Positions 2,652 to 59,122 of a stretch of DNA of 61,215 nt are shown one piece after another. The DNA lies in assembly GCA_016209985.1 (NCBI GenBank), contig JACQVB010000226.1, positions 1-61,215 on the forward strand. The letters run 5' to 3'. Every line of letters starts with the position of its first letter. The stretch's first letter is position 1. The notes under the pieces are model-generated. The model saw only the letters and a list, made by a program, of their open reading frames with translations. It ran no database searches and was not told the origin of the DNA. The DNA is from Gemmatimonadota bacterium (GTDB lineage: Bacteria > Gemmatimonadota > Gemmatimonadetes > Gemmatimonadales > GWC2-71-9). Made by a program: the position numbers and the translations under genes.

Positions 2652-3945
2652 GCTTCGCAAATACGTCCGCGACCTTCCTGGCAAAGGCTCTCGCCGAGAA
2701 ATGGTCTTCCGCCCGCACCCGTCCCAAATGCCCAATCTGCCAAAGTTCTTCTCGCGCAAGGGACAATGCACGCCTGAGGGACGAAGACAACGACGCGGCA
2801 TCTCTTGGTGGAACCAGCCACCCGCCAACGGAAACCCCTTTTGCATTCTGCGCACTGCGCACTTGTCCCTCTGCGTTCTGCGTACTGCGCACTCCCTCCA
2901 GGATCTCCAACGGTCCGCCTTCGGCAGCCGCCAGCACCGGCACGCCGCAGGCCATCGACTCGAGAATGACCCGCCCGAATGGCTCGGGCCGAAGCGAGTA
3001 ATGCACGGTCACGTCCAGCTCGGGATAGACCAGCTCGATCCTCGGTTGAAAGCCGAGGATGTGGAATTGTGGGGCAGCGCGGCCGAGGTTCGAGAGCCGG
3101 ATACTTTCGTGCAGTGCCTCGCCGAACTCGCGTTCCGCGATCGTGTCGTAGATGCTTCCGCCCACGAAGACCAGATGTGCGTCGGGAATGCTTTCCGCGA
3201 TGGATCGGAACGCTTCGATGACGACCTCGTGTCCCTTCCACCGGGCGAAGACCGCGGGCATGCCGACCAGACGGGCCGGAGCGGGAATCCCTAGCGCTTG
3301 GTGAATCCATCCGGTGCGCTCGCGAGGCTTGAAACGATCCAGATCGACGCCGTTGGGGACGACCACCAGACGGTCGGACGGTCGGGCGGTCGGACGGTTG
3401 GTGCCGGTTTCCGCGGCTATCTGACCGTCTGACCGTCTGACCGTCTGACCGTCCCATGCCTCCGCCACCGCCTTCGAATTCGCGATGAGTGCATCCGGCA
3501 CCCGCCTCGCGAGCATCTTCCACGCGCGCCCGGTCGTCTGGGGCGGGAATTCGTGGAGATGCCACACGACCTTTTTGCCGAACGGCAAGGTCGTGGCGAG
3601 ATGGCTTTTGAATCCCACCGAGTAGAGGACGTTGGCTTCCTGGCAGAACTTGTGGCTCCGGAGCGAGCGGGCCCACAGCGGCAAAGCCATCGCGGCGGGA
3701 AGAGCGGACCAGAGCCTGCCACGCTGCTGCGACCCGCGCAACATGATTTTCGGAGCGGGCACGACTCTGGCGGGGACGCCCGATTGGTTGAGGAGCTCGA
3801 TCAGCGGTCCATCTCGCGGCACCAGGACCCGCAGCGCGATGTCGTGCTCGAAGGCCCGTTCGGCAAAATCCAACAACACGCGTTCGGTGCCGCCGAGCTG
3901 GGCCGAGGCGGCGAGGGCGGTGACCCGAAGTGGAGTGGCGGTCAT
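2647..3945 (-). CDS. Glycosyltransferase family 4
   Basis: GGTERV, VVPNGVD, RWKGH and EPFGRVILESMACGVPV motifs; start reassigned to ATG 3945; carries two repeat-derived in-frame insertions. Confidence 0.9.
   Translation of the reverse strand: MTATPLRVTALAASAQLGGTERVLLDFAERAFEHDIALRVLVPRDGPLIELLNQSGVPARVVPAPKIMLRGSQQRGRLWSALPAAMALPLWARSLRSHKFCQEANVLYSVGFKSHLATTLPFGKKVVWHLHEFPPQTTGRAWKMLARRVPDALIANSKAVAEAWDGQTVRRSDGQIAAETGTNRPTARPSDRLVVVPNGVDLDRFKPRERTGWIHQALGIPAPARLVGMPAVFARWKGHEVVIEAFRSIAESIPDAHLVFVGGSIYDTIAEREFGEALHESIRLSNLGRAAPQFHILGFQPRIELVYPELDVTVHYSLRPEPFGRVILESMACGVPVLAAAEGGPLEILEGVRSTQNAEGQVRSAQNAKGVSVGGWLVPPRDAASLSSSLRRALSLAREELWQIGHLGRVRAEDHFSARAFARKVADVFAKL
2840..2893. repeat. In-frame 7-mer (CTGCGCA-type) array inside GT4
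   Basis: Two blocks, ttgcattctgcgcactgcgcact and ctgcgttctgcgtactgcgcact, encoding VRSTQNAEGQVRSAQNAKG. Confidence 0.75.
3368..3454. repeat. In-frame 8-mer (GACGGTCR) inverted-repeat hairpin inside GT4
   Basis: (gacggtcg)x4-like arm, 19-nt loop, (ctgaccgt)x4 arm; encodes DGQTVRRSDGQIAAETGTNRPTARPSDR. Confidence 0.9.
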
Positions 3946-3958
3946 GGGGCGAGGCGGC

Positions 3959-4087
3959 AAGAGGTAAAGAGTAAGAACGAGTGAAGAGGGAAGAGTAAAG
4001 CAACCCCGCGTTGATGCGCGGAATCGGCAACCAAGCAGCCGTGGAAGAGTTTTGCTCTTCCCTCTTCCCTCTTCACTCTTCACTCTC
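3959..4087. repeat. Intergenic 7-mer (GTGAAGA/GGGAAGA) inverted-repeat pair
   Basis: gagtgaagagggaagagtaaa ... tttgctcttccctcttccctcttcactcttcactctc. Confidence 0.85.
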
Positions 4088-5242
4088 TCAATGGAGGAGT
4101 GTCCGGTACAGTTCCGCCGTCCTCCGTGCCGTTTCCACCCACCGGAATTTCTTGGCGCGCTCCAGCCCCCGCCTGACCAGTTGTTCGCGCCAGGTCGCAT
4201 TCATGGTGAGGCGGCGCAGGGCCACGACGTACGGCTCCACCTCCCGCCCGCCAACCACGATGGCCGCGTCTCCCGCCACCTCCGCCAGTCCGCCCGCGCC
4301 CGAGGTCACCACCGGTAGCCCCGACGCCATGGCCTCGAGCACCGGGAAACCGAATCCTTCGTAGTGGGAGGGGAAGAGCAGCACGTCGGCCGCGCGATAC
4401 GCGGCCCGGAGTTCGGTTTCCGCCGCTTCGCCGACGGTGCGTACCCGGGCGGCAATACCGCGGGCGGCAAGATCGACCCGCTGATCGGGCGTGAGCGTGC
4501 CACCGACCTGGAGCAGCCAGGCGTCGGTGCCGCTGGCGCGGAGGCCGTGCACCGCCGCGATGACGGCGGGGAGATTCTTTCGCGGTCCCACGCTGCCGAC
4601 GTGCAGCACCACAAACGCGCTCTGGGGGATGTCGAGGCGTTTCCGGGTTGCCTCCGGTGTCTCCCCGGTCCGGGTGAGAAATCCATCGTCCACGCCGAAG
4701 GGAATCACGTGGATCCGATCTTCGTGGCCCAGCCAGTCGGCCAGCTCGGAGCGCATCCACTCAGTGGCGACGATCCATGCGTCCGCCCGCCGGAGCGCAT
4801 TCAGCACCCATTCCAGCAGGCGGTTCCGGATCCGGTCTCGGAAGCCGGCGGCGCCACGCTCGACCGTCAAGACGGGCAGCAGGTCGTGGACGGTGACGAT
4901 GGTCGGCGCTTGCCGGCCGGCGCGCAGCACGTGCGCATAGGAATGATCCAGCACGTGGATCAGGTCCGCCCGCTGGGAACGGACTCGGCGGGGATAGCGG
5001 TAATAGCGCGCCAGGTAGCGGCGGGCTTCCTGAAATCCGGGCGCGGGAAGCAGCGGGAGCGGAATCGGGCCCGAGCGATTGCGGCGGCCGCCGTCGGTGG
5101 TGAGTCCCGCGATTTGGCCGGCGAGCCGCACCTCGAGGTCGGTGGCATAGCGGCGGAGGTGCTCGGTCAGCCGGGACGCATAGCGGTCCATCGACGGCCA
5201 GCGCTCGAGGGGGAGATCCGGCACCAGAAGAACTCTATACAC
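4088..5242 (-). CDS. Glycosyltransferase family 4
   Basis: TVHDL, PRKNL and EGFGFPVLEAMASGLPVV motifs; start reassigned to GTG 5242. Confidence 0.9.
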   Translation of the reverse strand: MYRVLLVPDLPLERWPSMDRYASRLTEHLRRYATDLEVRLAGQIAGLTTDGGRRNRSGPIPLPLLPAPGFQEARRYLARYYRYPRRVRSQRADLIHVLDHSYAHVLRAGRQAPTIVTVHDLLPVLTVERGAAGFRDRIRNRLLEWVLNALRRADAWIVATEWMRSELADWLGHEDRIHVIPFGVDDGFLTRTGETPEATRKRLDIPQSAFVVLHVGSVGPRKNLPAVIAAVHGLRASGTDAWLLQVGGTLTPDQRVDLAARGIAARVRTVGEAAETELRAAYRAADVLLFPSHYEGFGFPVLEAMASGLPVVTSGAGGLAEVAGDAAIVVGGREVEPYVVALRRLTMNATWREQLVRRGLERAKKFRWVETARRTAELYRTLLH

Positions 5243-5255
5243 TTGCACACACAAC

Positions 5256-5292
5256 GGCGTGAAGAGTGTAGAGTGAAGAGGGAAAAGTACTA
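5256..5292. repeat. 37-bp inverted repeat, left arm flanking the four-helix-bundle gene
   Basis: ggcgtgaagagtgtagagtgaagagggaaaagtacta; 32/37 match to the reverse complement of 5739-5775. Confidence 0.9.
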
Positions 5293-5649
5293 CTGTTTGC
5301 GCGTAAGCCTCTTGAGCAACCCGATGAGGAGCTTGATGAGCAGATCGGTGTCTTCTTGAAGGCGCTTCTGTTCTGTAGGATCCAGTAGCTCCATCTCGGC
5401 AGCCAGCTCGATATGCCAGGCGAGTTCGCACGCTGAGCCGAACGCAATCCGCAGGCAGCGAACCAATTGCCTGGGTGTACCGAGTGCATAGCCTTCGACA
5501 ATATTAGCTGGAATGGACGCGGCCGCGCGGCGGATTTGATCCGCGAGGCCAAAGTGCCGTCGTAACGGTTGTTGCATGGTGGCACGATAGGCTGCTCGTG
5601 CGACATCCTTAGCGTGGGTCCACGCTTTGAGAGTTCCGAGCGATTGCAT
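5290..5649 (-). CDS. Four helix bundle protein (23S rRNA intervening-sequence protein family)
   Basis: 119 aa with family motifs LKAW, FGLADQIRRAAASIPANIVEG and LRIAFGSACEL; lower GC than neighbouring genes. Confidence 0.9.
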   Translation of the reverse strand: MQSLGTLKAWTHAKDVARAAYRATMQQPLRRHFGLADQIRRAAASIPANIVEGYALGTPRQLVRCLRIAFGSACELAWHIELAAEMELLDPTEQKRLQEDTDLLIKLLIGLLKRLTRKQ

Positions 5650-5738
5650 GCACCCAATTCCGCAGCCAGCAGCGAAAGTGCATCATCATTTCCTTGCAGC
5701 TCGTGGCAAATTGTCTCACTCGGCTCTGGCCTTTCGGT

Positions 5739-5775
5739 TAGTACTCTTCCCTCTAAACTCTTCACCCTTCACGCC
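5739..5775. repeat. 37-bp inverted repeat, right arm flanking the four-helix-bundle gene
   Basis: tagtactcttccctctaaactcttcacccttcacgcc; supplies the stop codon of the upstream membrane protein. Confidence 0.9.
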
Positions 5776-10238: not shown

Positions 10239-10351
10239 AGGCGTGAAGAGGGAAGAGTGAAGAGGGAAGCGCACTGCTTTCGCAGCCGTCTTCACGGTGA
10301 TGGTGGCGTGGTCTCACTCTTCCCTCTTGACTCTACACTCTCCACTCTTTT
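10239..10351. repeat. 7-mer (GTGAAGA-type) inverted pair; right arm translated as a methyltransferase C-terminus
   Basis: aggcgtgaagagggaagagtgaagagggaagcg ... cactcttccctcttgactctacactctccactctttt. Confidence 0.85.
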
Positions 10352-53789: not shown

Positions 53790-54638
53790 GTGGGGCGGCG
53801 CCTCGGCCAGCACTTCCTCACCGATCCGGCAATTCTGGACCGGATCGTCGATGCGATCGATCCCGGTCCGGACGACGTGGTGATCGAAATCGGGCCGGGG
53901 AAGGGAACGCTGACTCGCCGGCTTGCGCCGCGGGTGGGGCACGTCGTCGCGATAGAAAAGGACGCGGCGCTCGCCCAGCAACTGCGTGAAGAGTGTAGAG
54001 TGAAGAGGGAAGAGTACGGCCACGCCCAGGTGACGATCGTCGAAGGTGACGCGCTCACGCTCGACTGGACCAGGCTCACGGCGGCGCCCACTCTTCCCTC
54101 TTCACTCTACACTCTTCACGCCTTCAAGGTCATCGGCAACATCCCCTACTACATCACCTCACCCCTCATCGAGAAGGCGCTCACGACGCCACTTCCTTCG
54201 GTGATCGTGTTTCTGGTGCAGCGGGAGTTCGCTGGCCGGCTCACGGCGGCCCCCGGTGGAAAGGAATACGGCGCGCTCTCCGCAGGGGTCCAGGCGATTG
54301 CACGAGTCGAGAAACTGTTCGTGGTGCGTGCCGGTGCGTTCCATCCGCCACCCAAAGTGGATTCGGCGGTGGTCCGCCTTACCCCACGGAAGGACCCCAC
54401 CGTGAGGGGTGACGAGCACCCCCGGTTCCGGGCATTCCTGGCGGCGGTTTTTTCCCAAAGGAGAAAACAACTGGGTCGTGCGCTACGCGGGGTGACCGGC
54501 ATGAGTAAGGAGGACGTCCTGGCGGTGCTGGACGGAATCGGCATCGATCCCGCATCGAGGGCGGAGGTCCTCACCGTCGACCAGCTCACCAGTCTGTTTC
54601 GGCGAACCCAATTGTTCCCGGACTCGGTGACTGAGTAA
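53790..54638 (+). CDS. rsmA: 16S rRNA dimethyladenosine transferase RsmA/KsgA
   Basis: LGQHFL, EIGPGKG, GDAL, GNIPYYITSP and FHPPPKVDSA. Confidence 0.96.
   Translation: MGRRLGQHFLTDPAILDRIVDAIDPGPDDVVIEIGPGKGTLTRRLAPRVGHVVAIEKDAALAQQLREECRVKREEYGHAQVTIVEGDALTLDWTRLTAAPTLPSSLYTLHAFKVIGNIPYYITSPLIEKALTTPLPSVIVFLVQREFAGRLTAAPGGKEYGALSAGVQAIARVEKLFVVRAGAFHPPPKVDSAVVRLTPRKDPTVRGDEHPRFRAFLAAVFSQRRKQLGRALRGVTGMSKEDVLAVLDGIGIDPASRAEVLTVDQLTSLFRRTQLFPDSVTE
53984..54121. repeat. Perfect 32-bp inverted repeat inside rsmA
   Basis: gcgtgaagagtgtagagtgaagagggaagagt (53984-54015) is the exact reverse complement of 54090-54121; 74-nt loop. Confidence 0.95.
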
Positions 54639-58977: not shown

Positions 58978-59122
58978 CCTCACCCCTGTCCCCTCTCCCT
59001 GTGGGAGAGGGGGACGGAAGAGCGCCCATGGAAGTGCTGAGGGCTTTCCCCGGGGCTTTCAAGCGTTCACGTCACGCTGGCGTTTCCTTCTCCCGTAAGG
59101 GAGAGGGGACAGGGGTGAGGGG
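58978..59122. repeat. Two oppositely oriented REP-like palindromes between pheS and pheT
   Basis: cctcacccctgtcccctctccctgtgggagagggggac ... ctcccgtaagggagaggggacaggggtgagggg. Confidence 0.9.

What the first reader, a model, noticed from the sequence alone, without database searches (positions are those of the whole stretch)
53984..54121. Perfect 32-bp inverted repeat inserted as two separate in-frame pieces in rsmA, 31/32 identical to the four-helix-bundle arm 48 kb away
Seen: the arms encode REECRVKREE and TLPSSLYTLHA and flank a 74-nt loop encoding the conserved VTIVEGDAL SAM-binding strand. Removing the whole hairpin would destroy the enzyme, so this is not one simple insertion. Two complementary arms were acquired at two tolerant loop positions while keeping the frame. 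Perfect complementarity suggests recent origin or selection. Inference: it could be an RNase III-type dsRNA control site, a translation-gated hairpin, or the ends of an intragenic inverton that switches rsmA off.
Basis: partly seen in the sequence, partly recalled or inferred. Interest (0 to 1): 0.88.

Follow-up and report, generated by a model that had tools for sequence, protein, structure and literature searches.

The report
Split repeat hairpin inside rsmA gene
A perfect 32-bp hairpin whose two arms sit at two separate tolerant spots of the rRNA methyltransferase gene rsmA is one copy of a genome-wide family of tandem-heptamer hairpin repeats in a Gemmatimonadales bacterium, and related species keep a hairpin at the same two spots with quite different but still complementary arm sequences.

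Summary
Arms 53984-54015 and 54090-54121 are 32/32 complementary. They lie in frame in rsmA and flank 74 nt that encode the conserved beta3 'VTIVEGDAL' strand.

It is not an rsmA-specific device. Each arm is a tandem heptamer array, (GTGAAGA)n. The genome (a Gemmatimonadales MAG) holds about 220-300 such hairpins, in several unit families of 7-10 nt. Nearly all have the G-rich arm first, and most start within 40 nt of a stop codon. Other copies lie in frame in mutL, hflX, dinB, nadE and a penicillin amidase gene; the amidase is a second 'split' case.

Of 42 RsmA orthologues, 21 carry arms or arm remnants at the same two sites. All 21 fall in one clade of 24, and none of the 18 outside has them. 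The heptamer unit differs between species, yet the arms stay complementary.

Best reading (0.55): an old, tolerated member of a self-homogenising foldback-like repeat family, kept paired by slippage, arm-to-arm templated repair and copying between loci. A selected RNase III or translation-gated role remains possible. The inverton idea is untested and unlikely.

Side finding: nearly all Avd-like (PF05635) genes are enclosed by such arms.

The parts
53790..54638 (+). rsmA (ksgA), 16S rRNA dimethyladenosine transferase, 282 aa
   Evidence: ORF. KsgA chains of the PDB match at E 1e-37 over residues 3-269. AlphaFold model: mean pLDDT 91.5.
53984..54015 (+). G-rich arm A: GC + (GTGAAGA GTGTAGA GTGAAGA GGGAAGA) + GT. 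Encodes residues 65-76, LREECRVKREEY.
   Evidence: Only one of the three sense frames of this arm lacks a stop, and that frame is the one used (read from the sequence). Modelled as the end of helix 59-76.
54016..54089 (+). 74-nt 'loop': native rsmA sequence encoding GHAQ-VTIVEGDAL-TLDWTRLTAAP (strand beta3 with the GDAL motif, plus a short helix)
   Evidence: Aligns with orthologues that lack arms. D87 and L89 are invariant. Strand 80-85 and helix 93-97 in the model.
54090..54121 (+). C-rich arm B, exact reverse complement of arm A. Encodes residues 101-111, TLPSSLYTLHA.
   Evidence: Lies in the irregular stretch 98-111; pLDDT for the residue block 101-110 is 55.
5257..5288 (+). G-arm of the same subfamily, 31/32 identical to the rsmA arm. 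Left arm of a pair that encloses 454 nt.
5290..5649 (-). Avd-like / 23S rRNA-IVS-protein four-helix-bundle gene (PF05635), enclosed by the arm pair 5259-5288 / 5743-5772
   Evidence: ORF. Pfam E 3.6e-25. Best solved relative is 2gsc, 'XCC0516', E 2.2e-13.
5743..5772 (-). Right (C-rich on +) arm of the pair around the PF05635 gene; 4 mismatches to the 30-nt core
10243..10345 (.). Another hairpin of the same family: arms 10243-10272 and 10316-10345, loop 43 nt
4054..4083 (-). C-rich arm of the same family, with a degenerate partner upstream

Best explanation
The rsmA inverted repeat is one copy of a genome-wide family of foldback-like hairpin repeats. In this family each arm is a short array of tandem 7-10-nt units with family-specific end sequences. 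The G-rich arm always comes first, and the sequence between the arms is unrelated from copy to copy.

Most copies sit just after stop codons. A minority survive inside genes where the added peptides are tolerated and the frame is kept.

In RsmA the two arms occupy two permissive positions at the N-terminal ends of strands beta3 and beta4. This arrangement arose once in an ancestor of a Gemmatimonadales clade (shown).

Since then the arms have turned over quickly while staying complementary. Three processes are inferred: slippage within each array (period kept, 21-nt in-frame steps), templated correction of one arm from the other when the DNA folds back, and copying of arm sequence between dispersed copies. 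The likely route for the last is ectopic repair after hairpin breakage.

The hairpin is therefore a tolerated, self-maintaining structure, not a device evolved to control rsmA. A 32-bp duplex in the mRNA may still lower expression as a side effect.
For: (1) Family. A census of G000 finds 333 non-redundant inverted repeats with arms of 20 nt or more. Of these, 221 have tandem-repeat arms: period 7 in 161, period 8 in 36, period 10 in 12, period 9 in 11, period 6 in 1. The G-rich arm is first in 194, the C-rich arm in 26, and 1 is tied. Median arm is 26 nt and median loop 40 nt. An independent TRF census gives 1306 arrays. Neighbouring pairs within 300 nt are 300 G->C against 43 C->G, 18 C-C and 11 G-G.

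(2) The rsmA arm belongs to this family. There are 35 matches to the 30-nt core at up to 3 mismatches, including one 30/30 match on contig C230 and six one-mismatch copies that share the same irregular order of units. Copies share outer (AAAGGC / GCCTTT) and inner (GTAAAAC / GTTTTAC) ends, but their loops are unrelated and range from 0 to 454 nt.

(3) Usual location. 140 of 221 hairpins have the stop codon of a gene reading towards them within 40 nt, against 5.6% of 5000 random intervals (gene calls are my own).

(4) Other in-frame copies. I tested 10 ORFs with Pfam. Seven have domains on both sides of, or spanning, the hairpin: BlaR1-HEAT, NadE, penicillin amidase, a PMT_2 transferase, MutL, HflX and DinB. 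One has a domain on one side only. Two gave no hit.

(5) Second split case. The penicillin amidase arms flank the conserved SNNW...WYEAHL segment in G000 (stem 31, 2 mismatches, 8-mer GGCGGGTC) and in G002 (stem 34, 3 mismatches, 8-mer GGCGGATG). The 9 other relatives have best stems of 15-19.

(6) One origin. Of 42 RsmA orthologues, 16 (14 distinct) have stems of 23-35 nt with at most 3 mismatches and period 7. Five more have remnants. All 21 lie in one clade of 24 (support 97/94 with the insert region masked), and 0 of 18 lie outside. Among 500 label shuffles, 0 needed as few changes.

(7) Concerted turnover. Sister sequences L039 and L163 differ by GCGGAAT versus GCGGATT in the first three units, with matching changes in the other arm. 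L161 lacks exactly 21 nt (3 units) of the C-arm of L159. L154 and L164 are 90-97% identical in most of the 3' two-thirds of the gene but only 61-69% identical across arm-loop-arm.

(8) Each genome tested uses one of its own dispersed families in rsmA: G002 13 matches, G005 13, G012 16.

(9) Dispensability. Within the clade, 3 of 24 lack arms and 5 of 24 have one arm or decayed arms, with the gene still intact.
Against: No simple insertion event yields two complementary arms around native sequence, so the origin step is unexplained.

The strong G-first bias (about 7:1) is not predicted by slippage or arm-to-arm repair.

Typical family members carry 2-3 mismatches, and only 11 of 221 are perfect. 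Homogenisation is therefore not continuous, and the perfect 32-bp rsmA stem sits at the clean end of the range, as selection for pairing would also predict.

Retention in 21 of 24 clade members, with wholesale compensatory change, is what a selected RNA structure would show.

The loop also diverges fast between L154 and L164. That could instead reflect recombination with foreign alleles.

Gene calls for the location statistics are my own crude ones. The five 'partial' labels were assigned by eye.

No expression, cleavage or raw-read data exist for this organism here.
Confidence: 0.55

Rival explanations
1. The pairing is kept by selection because the hairpin acts on rsmA mRNA. One version is a long duplex cut by RNase III. 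Another is a structure that forms only when the message is not being translated. Either would tune the RsmA level.
For: The duplex is perfect over 32 bp and very stable (-96.7 kcal/mol, z = -8). It is the second longest of the 11 perfect stems among 221. Pairing is kept through complete changes of arm sequence in 14 distinct orthologues of one clade. PF05635 genes, known from RNase III-processed 23S rRNA intervening sequences (a passage of PMC10053308; the RNase III part is recalled), are enclosed by the same kind of arms.
Against: The same architecture occurs at hundreds of unrelated sites and inside at least 7 other genes. A gene-specific role is therefore not needed to explain it. Arms are lost, one-sided or decayed in 8 of 24 clade members. 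The penicillin amidase shows the same split pattern. No RNA run holds the locus.
Confidence: 0.2
2. The arms are ends of an active mobile or copying system, possibly tied to the PF05635 (Avd-like) cassettes. This system writes paired inverted arms around target segments, or overwrites existing arms from a master copy. The rsmA sites were re-armed repeatedly.
For: Arms have defined family-specific termini and identical irregular unit orders at many loci. Arm families differ even between near-identical genes (L154 and L164). Non-complementary mixed pairs exist, still G-first: the gene at C281:9368-10717 (GGGAAGA array with a CCTCGCA array) and C278. Among non-complementary neighbouring pairs there are 39 G->C against 12 C->G, 15 C-C and 11 G-G. 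PF05635 genes are enclosed by inverted arms in 27 of 28 cases in five relatives (stem 21 nt or more). Twenty of the 28 exceed the maximum of 24 seen in 466 controls. In G000, 4 of 6 reach 21. In G000, G005 and G012 one such cassette carries the family used in rsmA.
Against: No enzyme candidate was found. The two Y1-transposase genes are not specially flanked by arrays, and the only reverse transcriptase is a group II intron type. A four-helix-bundle protein is not a known nuclease or transposase. With 6-10 cassettes and about 10 families per genome, sharing a family with rsmA is expected by chance about half the time (my estimate). No target-site duplications were seen, though I did not look systematically.
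Confidence: 0.17
3. The repeat pair is the boundary of an intragenic inverton that switches rsmA off by flipping the 74-nt segment.
For: The inverted repeats are perfect. The flipped segment would place two stop codons in frame.
Against: The repeat is a member of a family of hundreds of hairpins with loops down to 0 nt. The assembled orientation is the functional one in all 14 distinct orthologues. No reads of the other orientation could be sought, because only contigs were available.
Confidence: 0.03
4. Assembly artefact: repeat arms wrongly threaded into rsmA by the assembler.
For: The genome is a 289-contig MAG. Unitigs break inside the arms.
Against: Unitigs join each arm to unique rsmA sequence on both sides with 0 differences, at the depth of the flanks, in two to three runs. 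The frame is intact. Independent assemblies of other species have the same layout.
Confidence: 0.01

Closest known systems
Paired inverted G-rich heptamer repeats of Xanthomonas, (GGGAATC)n (Rehm et al. 2015, PMC4692102; I read section 10 in full and passages of the introduction and sections 11 and 13)
   Same: Both are tandem G-rich heptamers, most often about 4 units long. In Xanthomonas, 70-75 pairs per genome lie in convergent orientation on opposite strands, 89-93% are intergenic, and they sit about 28 nt after the upstream ORF. They were not found with IS or transposons. A minority (7-11%) overlap ORFs.
   Different: Here several unit families of 7-10 nt coexist, and most cannot form G-quadruplexes. 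Copies lie in frame inside housekeeping genes. Two cases have arms split around conserved coding sequence, kept across species with changed arms. The Xanthomonas paper reports no conservation of repeats at the same genes between two species.
Rickettsia palindromic elements, RPEs (Ogata et al. 2000 and 2002, seen only as passages in the review PMC10969869)
   Same: Both are palindromic repeats inserted in frame into many unrelated protein genes at positions compatible with the fold.
   Different: An RPE is a single unit of about 150 bp inserted whole. Here the rsmA and amidase arms are at two sites, with native coding sequence as the loop, and the arms are tandem short repeats.
REP / REPIN elements mobilised by RAYT transposases (PMC3116915 and PMC3733652, abstracts only)
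   Same: Both are short dispersed repeats, often in inverted pairs that form hairpins, and mostly extragenic near gene ends.
   Different: A REP is itself a palindrome with a GTAG or CGTC head. These arms are not self-complementary: arm A contains no C. REPIN spacers are conserved, whereas these loops are unrelated. A separate, truly REP-like family also exists in this genome.
Foldback transposable elements of Drosophila (recalled, not read)
   Same: Both have long inverted terminal arms built from tandem short repeats, with a variable middle segment.
   Different: The Drosophila elements are eukaryotic and kilobase-scale. No transposase link is shown here.
23S rRNA intervening sequences that carry a PF05635 ORF, and DGR Avd proteins (passages of PMC10053308; the IVS stem and RNase III processing are recalled)
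   Same: The architecture is an inverted-repeat stem, a four-helix-bundle ORF, then the other half of the stem. It is seen around 4 of 6 (G000) and 27 of 28 (relatives) PF05635 genes.
   Different: The cassettes here are not in rRNA genes. The arms are tandem repeats. No DGR reverse transcriptase was found in G000.
Coding palindromes in Nematomorpha mitochondrial genes (PMC6649704, abstract only)
   Same: Both are long perfect inverted repeats kept inside functional protein genes.
   Different: There both arms encode conserved protein regions. Here the arms encode unconserved added peptides and the loop carries the conserved part.

Membership tests
Paired inverted heptamer SSRs (Xanthomonas type) | Arm is a tandem array of a G-rich heptamer, about 4 units | tested here: met
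   GTGAAGA GTGTAGA GTGAAGA GGGAAGA. Self-identity at period 7 is 0.8.
Paired inverted heptamer SSRs (Xanthomonas type) | Two arrays in convergent orientation close together (G-rich strand first on both strands) | tested here: met
   Family-wide, 194 of 221 are G-first, and there are 300 G->C against 43 C->G neighbouring pairs.
Paired inverted heptamer SSRs (Xanthomonas type) | Intergenic, just downstream of an ORF | tested here: not met
   Met by the family: 140 of 221 lie within 40 nt of a stop codon. This copy, however, is in the middle of rsmA.
Paired inverted heptamer SSRs (Xanthomonas type) | GGG tracts able to form a G-quadruplex | tested here: not met
   Arm A has a single GGG. Several families (AGGTGTC, GTGAGAA, GGTGCGT) have none.
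REP/REPIN | Each repeat unit is itself an imperfect palindrome | tested here: not met
   Arm A contains no C, so it cannot pair with itself by G-C.
REP/REPIN | Cognate RAYT (Y1 transposase) gene flanked by the repeats | tested here: not met
   Two PF01797 matches. No arrays lie around the C6 gene. Only one ordinary hairpin (arrays 984-1013 and 1061-1090) lies beside the C37 gene.
MITE | Terminal inverted repeats with a homologous internal sequence in all copies | tested here: not met
   Loops of family members are unrelated and range from 0 to 454 nt. In rsmA the loop is native coding sequence.
MITE | Target-site duplication | not tested
   Flanks were read by eye only. The shared outer AAAGGC / GCCTTT are complementary, not direct.
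In-frame palindromic insertion (RPE-like) | The whole palindrome is one insertion relative to orthologues | tested here: not met
   There are two separate length differences with conserved beta3 between them. Other copies in this genome have short, unconserved loops between or within Pfam domains (for example HflX and MutL), which suits whole-element insertion; their orthologues were not aligned.
Intragenic inverton | Both orientations of the segment present in reads | not testable with these tools
   Only Logan contigs were available, and they cannot fix orientation across a 32-nt repeat at k = 31.
Intragenic inverton | Inverted repeats flanking a segment whose flip changes the product | tested here: met
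   The flipped loop gives two in-frame stops.
RNase III processing stem | Uninterrupted RNA duplex of about two helical turns or more (criterion recalled) | tested here: met
   32 consecutive pairs in the MFE and centroid folds.
RNase III processing stem | Cleavage in vivo | not testable with these tools
   No RNA holder listed.
Intrinsic terminator | Short-loop GC-rich stem followed by a U tract | tested here: not met
   The scan finds no terminator-like site at the hairpin. The loop is 74 nt and the tail is GCCUUCAAGG.
Any Rfam family | Score at or above the gathering threshold | tested here: not met
   Only plant miRNA-precursor models match, far below threshold (41.6 against 168 bits and the like). 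These are generic long-hairpin matches.
RsmA/KsgA (the host gene) | Sequence homology to KsgA, with the GxGxG, GDAL and NIPY motifs and an intact frame | tested here: met

The most novel reading that the evidence does not exclude
Gemmatimonadales, and perhaps other bacteria with heptamer repeats such as Xanthomonas and Nostoc, may carry an undescribed sequence-copying system. In it, cassettes of the form 'inverted tandem-repeat arms + Avd-like four-helix-bundle gene' (the architecture of 23S rRNA intervening sequences) would act as master copies. Their arm sequence would be written onto, or paired arms created around, other sites genome-wide, including inside essential genes. That would explain the G-first polarity, the family-specific arm ends, the unrelated loops, the replacement of one arm at a time and the split arms in rsmA.
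Probability: 0.15. Interest if true: 0.9.

Novelty: new variant of a known kind. Interest (0 to 1): 0.72.

Why it matters
Three things would matter if confirmed.

1. A hairpin's two arms can be lodged at separate tolerant positions of a conserved enzyme, with a catalytic-core strand serving as the loop, and this can persist over genus-level divergence. That is a clean natural case of nucleic-acid structure and protein structure being maintained together.

2. The arms change wholesale between close relatives yet stay complementary and heptameric. Some fast homogenising process must therefore act on dispersed hairpins. Such a process would mimic 'covariation' and could mislead RNA-structure discovery.

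3. The near-universal enclosure of Avd-like / IVS-protein genes by such arms gives a testable lead on two long-unexplained items: the function of the widespread PF05635 proteins outside DGRs, and the origin of bacterial heptamer repeats.

Tried and rejected
- No RNA holder was listed for the locus.
- Only contigs were available. They break inside the arms, so inversion and expression could not be examined. X3 has no cover over 54036-54083, which proves nothing. The 'joints' have other letters between the sides, which points to family members elsewhere with different loops. One of them (23 letters between) is the reverse complement of the C117 hairpin loop.
- The Rfam evalue search gave only sub-threshold plant miRNA hairpin models.
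- The terminator scan found nothing at the hairpin.
- The RAYT idea: two Y1_Tnp genes, not specially associated with arrays.
- The DGR-like reverse transcriptase idea: the single RT is a group II intron type with a GIIM domain.
- The metagenome and genome-collection scans returned no relative closer than 61-63% identity. No strain-level snapshot of arm change was obtained for G000 itself.
- Eight of 50 orthologue loci (L042, L056, L060, L079, L080, L160, L165, L166) were dropped because my motif pattern did not find the gene. They were not examined for arms.
- Literature searches listed no paper that describes these repeats in Gemmatimonadota, or PF05635 cassettes with tandem-repeat arms. That is a statement about those six searches only. 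Supplementary tables of Rehm et al. could not be seen and may list repeats next to the Xanthomonas PF05635 gene.
- The idea that the heptamers mimic the RsmA substrate loop of 16S helix 45 was dropped, because the same arms occur genome-wide.
Full report
OBSERVATION.
The repeat is exactly as described. Arms 53984-54015 and 54090-54121 are 32 nt long, 100% complementary and 74 nt apart. They lie inside a 282-aa ORF at 53790-54638(+). The ORF is RsmA/KsgA: its best solved relatives are KsgA chains at E 1e-37, and an AlphaFold model has mean pLDDT 91.5.

A 32-mer match at up to 3 mismatches never appeared in 100 shuffles of the window, against 4 observed. The RNA fold is -96.7 kcal/mol, z = -8.0.

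THE TWO SITES.
I aligned 27 RsmA orthologues, from 30 loci of relatives; three were dropped because my motif search did not find the gene. Arm-free proteins are shorter at two places. One is before strand beta3 ('VxIVxGDAL'). The other is before strand beta4 ('KVIGNIPY'). The segment between them is conserved, and D87 and L89 are invariant in 38 sequences.

In the model, arm A (residues 65-76) extends helix 59-76. Arm B (101-111) lies in an irregular stretch, with pLDDT 55 for the residue block 101-110, ahead of strand 112-117. By general knowledge of Rossmann-like methyltransferases, both additions sit at the N-terminal ends of parallel strands. That is the face opposite the SAM site.

Only one of the three frames of arm A is open, and it is the frame used (sequence).

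WHAT THE ARM IS.
Arm A reads GC-GTGAAGA-GTGTAGA-GTGAAGA-GGGAAGA-GT, a tandem heptamer array. The window's genome (G000; 289 contigs, 4.64 Mb, 65% G+C) holds 35 matches to the 30-nt core at up to 3 mismatches. Many come as +/- pairs.

My census found 333 non-redundant inverted repeats with arms of 20 nt or more. Of these, 221 have tandem-repeat arms: period 7 in 161, period 8 in 36, period 10 in 12, period 9 in 11, period 6 in 1. There are at least ten unit families, including GGGAAGA/GTGAAGA, GGTGCGT, AGGTGTC, GGCGGGTC, GTGAGAA, AGCCATC, GCGGAGC, GGGTCGGTAA and GGGTTGTAA. The G-rich arm comes first in 194, the C-rich arm in 26, and 1 is tied. Median arm is 26 nt, median loop 40 nt, and only 11 are perfect.

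TRF independently gives 1306 arrays of period 7, 8 or 10. There are 300 G->C neighbouring pairs against 43 C->G, 18 C-C and 11 G-G.

Copies of the rsmA subfamily share outer ends (AAAGGC...GCCTTT) and inner ends (GTAAAAC...GTTTTAC). Their loops are unrelated and range from 0 to 454 nt. Other families also end in family-specific inner sequences, for example ...CAGGG and ...GTGGGGGCTGAC. The arms are therefore copies of defined sequences, not independent local expansions.

Of the 221 hairpins, 140 have the stop codon of a gene reading towards them within 40 nt, against 5.6% of 5000 random intervals (gene calls are my own GC3-based ones).

The organism is an uncultured Gemmatimonadales bacterium (titles of the nearest records). 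The runs that hold the locus are labelled groundwater metagenomes.

OTHER GENES.
I tested 10 ORFs with mid-gene hairpins against Pfam. Seven have domains on both sides of, or spanning, the hairpin:
- a BlaR1-HEAT protein;
- NadE;
- penicillin amidase;
- a PMT_2 transferase;
- MutL, in its linker;
- HflX, inside the G domain;
- DinB.
One has a domain on one side only, and two gave no hit.

The amidase is a second split case. Its arms lie at residues 264-274 and 340-350, flanking the conserved SNNW...WYEAHL segment. G002, of the same genus, has arms at the same two places with another 8-mer: stem 34 with 3 mismatches, against stem 31 with 2 mismatches in G000. Nine other relatives have only chance-level stems of 15-19.

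A gene at C281:9368-10717 carries a (GGGAAGA)4 array and, about 100 nt downstream, a C-rich array of a different family. I take it for rarA from its sequence by eye; no family search was run. C278 has another such mixed pair.

EVOLUTION IN rsmA.
I examined 42 orthologues: 27 from relatives, 5 from genome contigs and 10 from metagenome contigs. Eight of 50 loci were dropped as stated above.

Sixteen orthologues (14 distinct) have stems of 23-35 nt with at most 3 mismatches and period-7 self-identity of 0.69-0.92. Those without arms have best stems of 11-16. Five more have remnants, labelled by eye:
- L032 has only a C-type array at site B.
- L034 has a G-arm at site A and a non-complementary G-rich stretch at site B.
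- L155, L158 and L161 have short or decayed arms.

All 21 lie in one clade of 24. Support is 97/92, or 97/94 with the insert region masked. None of the 18 outside has arms. The minimum is 4 changes, for example one gain and three losses, and 0 of 500 label shuffles needed as few.

The units differ widely: GTGAAGA (G000), GGGAAAA (G002), GCGGATT/GCGGAAT (G011, G005, L154, L163), GCGGAAC (G021), GGGGATT (G012), GGGGAAT/GGGGAAA (L164), GGGGAGC (L156), GGGCGTG (L077), GTGCAAC (L074), GTACGCC/GTGCGCA (L076) and AGGTGTC (L075).

Three comparisons show how the arms change:
- Sisters L039 and L163 differ by the same A/T change in the first three units, with the compensating change in the other arm.
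- L161 lacks exactly 21 nt (three units, seven codons) of the C-arm of L159.
- L154 and L164 are 90-97% identical in most of the 3' two-thirds of the gene but 61-69% identical across arm-loop-arm, loop included.

In each of three relatives tested, the rsmA arm matches a dispersed family of that genome: G002 13 matches, G005 13 and G012 16 at up to 3 mismatches. Reversed-pattern controls gave 7, 0 and 0.

Avd-LIKE CASSETTES.
The 31/32 copy at 5259-5288 pairs with 5743-5772 around a PF05635 gene at 5290-5649(-). Its best solved relative is 2gsc, 'XCC0516'. From memory, that locus tag denotes Xanthomonas campestris, the organism of the published heptamer pairs.

All six PF05635 genes of G000 lie next to tandem arrays, and five are enclosed by a G-first pair, each of a different unit family. 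By a uniform test, the best gapless inverted repeat (up to 4 mismatches) between the two flanks is 41, 39, 29, 25, 20 and 17 nt.

In five relatives, 27 of 28 PF05635 genes reach 21 nt and 20 of 28 reach 25 nt. Loops are mostly 420-520 nt. Seventeen of the 28 pass my periodicity criterion. In controls, 8 of 216 small genes and 18 of 250 random windows reached 21 nt, and the maximum was 24.

This is the architecture recalled for 23S rRNA intervening sequences that encode this protein family. The family is also that of DGR Avd (passages of PMC10053308).

READS.
Unitigs in runs X1 and X2 (possibly the source) and partly in X3 join each arm to unique rsmA sequence with no differences, at the depth of the flanks. 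They break inside the arms, as expected at k = 31. No raw reads and no RNA runs were available.

HOW IT MOST LIKELY WORKS.
Shown: the repeat is a member of a large hairpin family; the arms occupy two tolerant sites; there was a single old origin in rsmA; the arms turn over quickly and in concert; arm sequence is shared between loci; the arms are dispensable.

Inferred: within-array slippage keeps the period and gives 21-nt in-frame steps. Fold-back (quasi-palindrome) templated repair copies one arm onto the other. Hairpin breakage followed by ectopic repair spreads arm variants between loci. These mechanisms are recalled from the literature on palindrome instability and were not tested here.

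Unexplained: how paired arms first arise around native sequence; why the G-rich arm is first about 7:1, even among non-complementary pairs (39 against 12, 15 and 11); and why the unit is usually 7 nt.

RIVALS.
Selection on an RNA duplex (RNase III or translation-gated decay) fits the perfect stem and the compensatory change. It is not needed, given the family, and it sits poorly with 8 of 24 lineages having lost pairing.

An active arm-writing system linked to the PF05635 cassettes fits the defined arm ends, arm-wise replacement and polarity. It lacks an enzyme: no RAYT association was found, and the only reverse transcriptase is a group II intron type.

The inverton is untested. Flipping would give two in-frame stops.

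COMPARISON AND NOVELTY.
The nearest described thing is the paired inverted (GGGAATC)n repeats of Xanthomonas (PMC4692102). Those share the heptamer, the length of about 4 units, the convergent pairing and the position after ORFs.

Four features are not described there, nor in any paper listed by my six searches:
- several coexisting unit families;
- in-frame copies in housekeeping genes;
- arms split around conserved coding sequence and kept across genera with changed arms;
- enclosure of PF05635 genes.

RPEs, REP/REPINs, MITEs, foldback elements and the Nematomorpha coding palindromes each share some features and fail others (see the membership table). I rate it a new variant of a known kind.

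Noticed in passing
window 5259-5772; G000 C154:5671-6200, C7:10393-10925, C99:~250-800, C33:~3600-4220, C134:18980-19401; loci L255-L282: Nearly every PF05635 (Avd-like / 23S rRNA IVS protein) gene is enclosed by an inverted pair of tandem-repeat arms, each cassette with its own unit, and loops of about 420-520 nt. A stem of 21 nt or more is reached by 27 of 28 genes in five relatives and 4 of 6 in G000. Controls: 8 of 216 and 18 of 250, maximum 24.
   Followed up: partly
window 58978-59120, also 20226, 20787, 29909; 96 copies in G000: A second, REP-like repeat family. Its unit, CCTCACCCCTGTCCCCTCTCCC-(4 nt)-GGGAGAGGGG..., is itself a palindrome. Some units come in inverted pairs (REPIN-like), with the C-rich side first. 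It may belong with the two Y1-transposase genes at C6:17601-17852 and C37:1155-1433.
   Followed up: partly
G000 C76:1-1896(-) = L063/L234; G002 L235: In the penicillin amidase gene the first arm lies in the variable stretch just ahead of the conserved SNNW segment. From memory, that stretch is the spacer removed when the enzyme matures. The second arm is a 16-aa addition after WYEAHLVV. The layout is shared by two species of the genus with different 8-mers.
   Followed up: yes
G000 C281:9906-10069; C278:354-498: Mixed pairs inside genes: a G-rich array of one family followed about 90-100 nt later by a C-rich array of another, non-complementary family.
   Followed up: no
G000 C75:39495-41276(-), C188:1200-2519(-), C162:1793-3106(+), C174:24771-26723(+): In-frame hairpins in the mutL linker, the hflX G domain, dinB between palm and thumb, and the nadE interdomain linker.
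   Followed up: partly
L154 vs L164 (metagenome contigs), rsmA: Two near-identical rsmA genes (90-97% in most of the 3' part) drop to 61-69% identity across arm-loop-arm. L164 reads VADAL where others have EGDAL. This is either a local hot spot of change or an imported segment.
   Followed up: partly
G000 C157:545-1510(+) = L073: The only reverse-transcriptase match in the genome is a group II intron type (RVT_1 C-terminal part plus GIIM), near a contig end.
   Followed up: partly
G000 C40:12338-14089(+): A PMT_2-family glycosyltransferase carries a short-loop in-frame hairpin (aa 156-178). It also carries a third, G-rich array of the same 8-mer family at aa 311-320.
   Followed up: no
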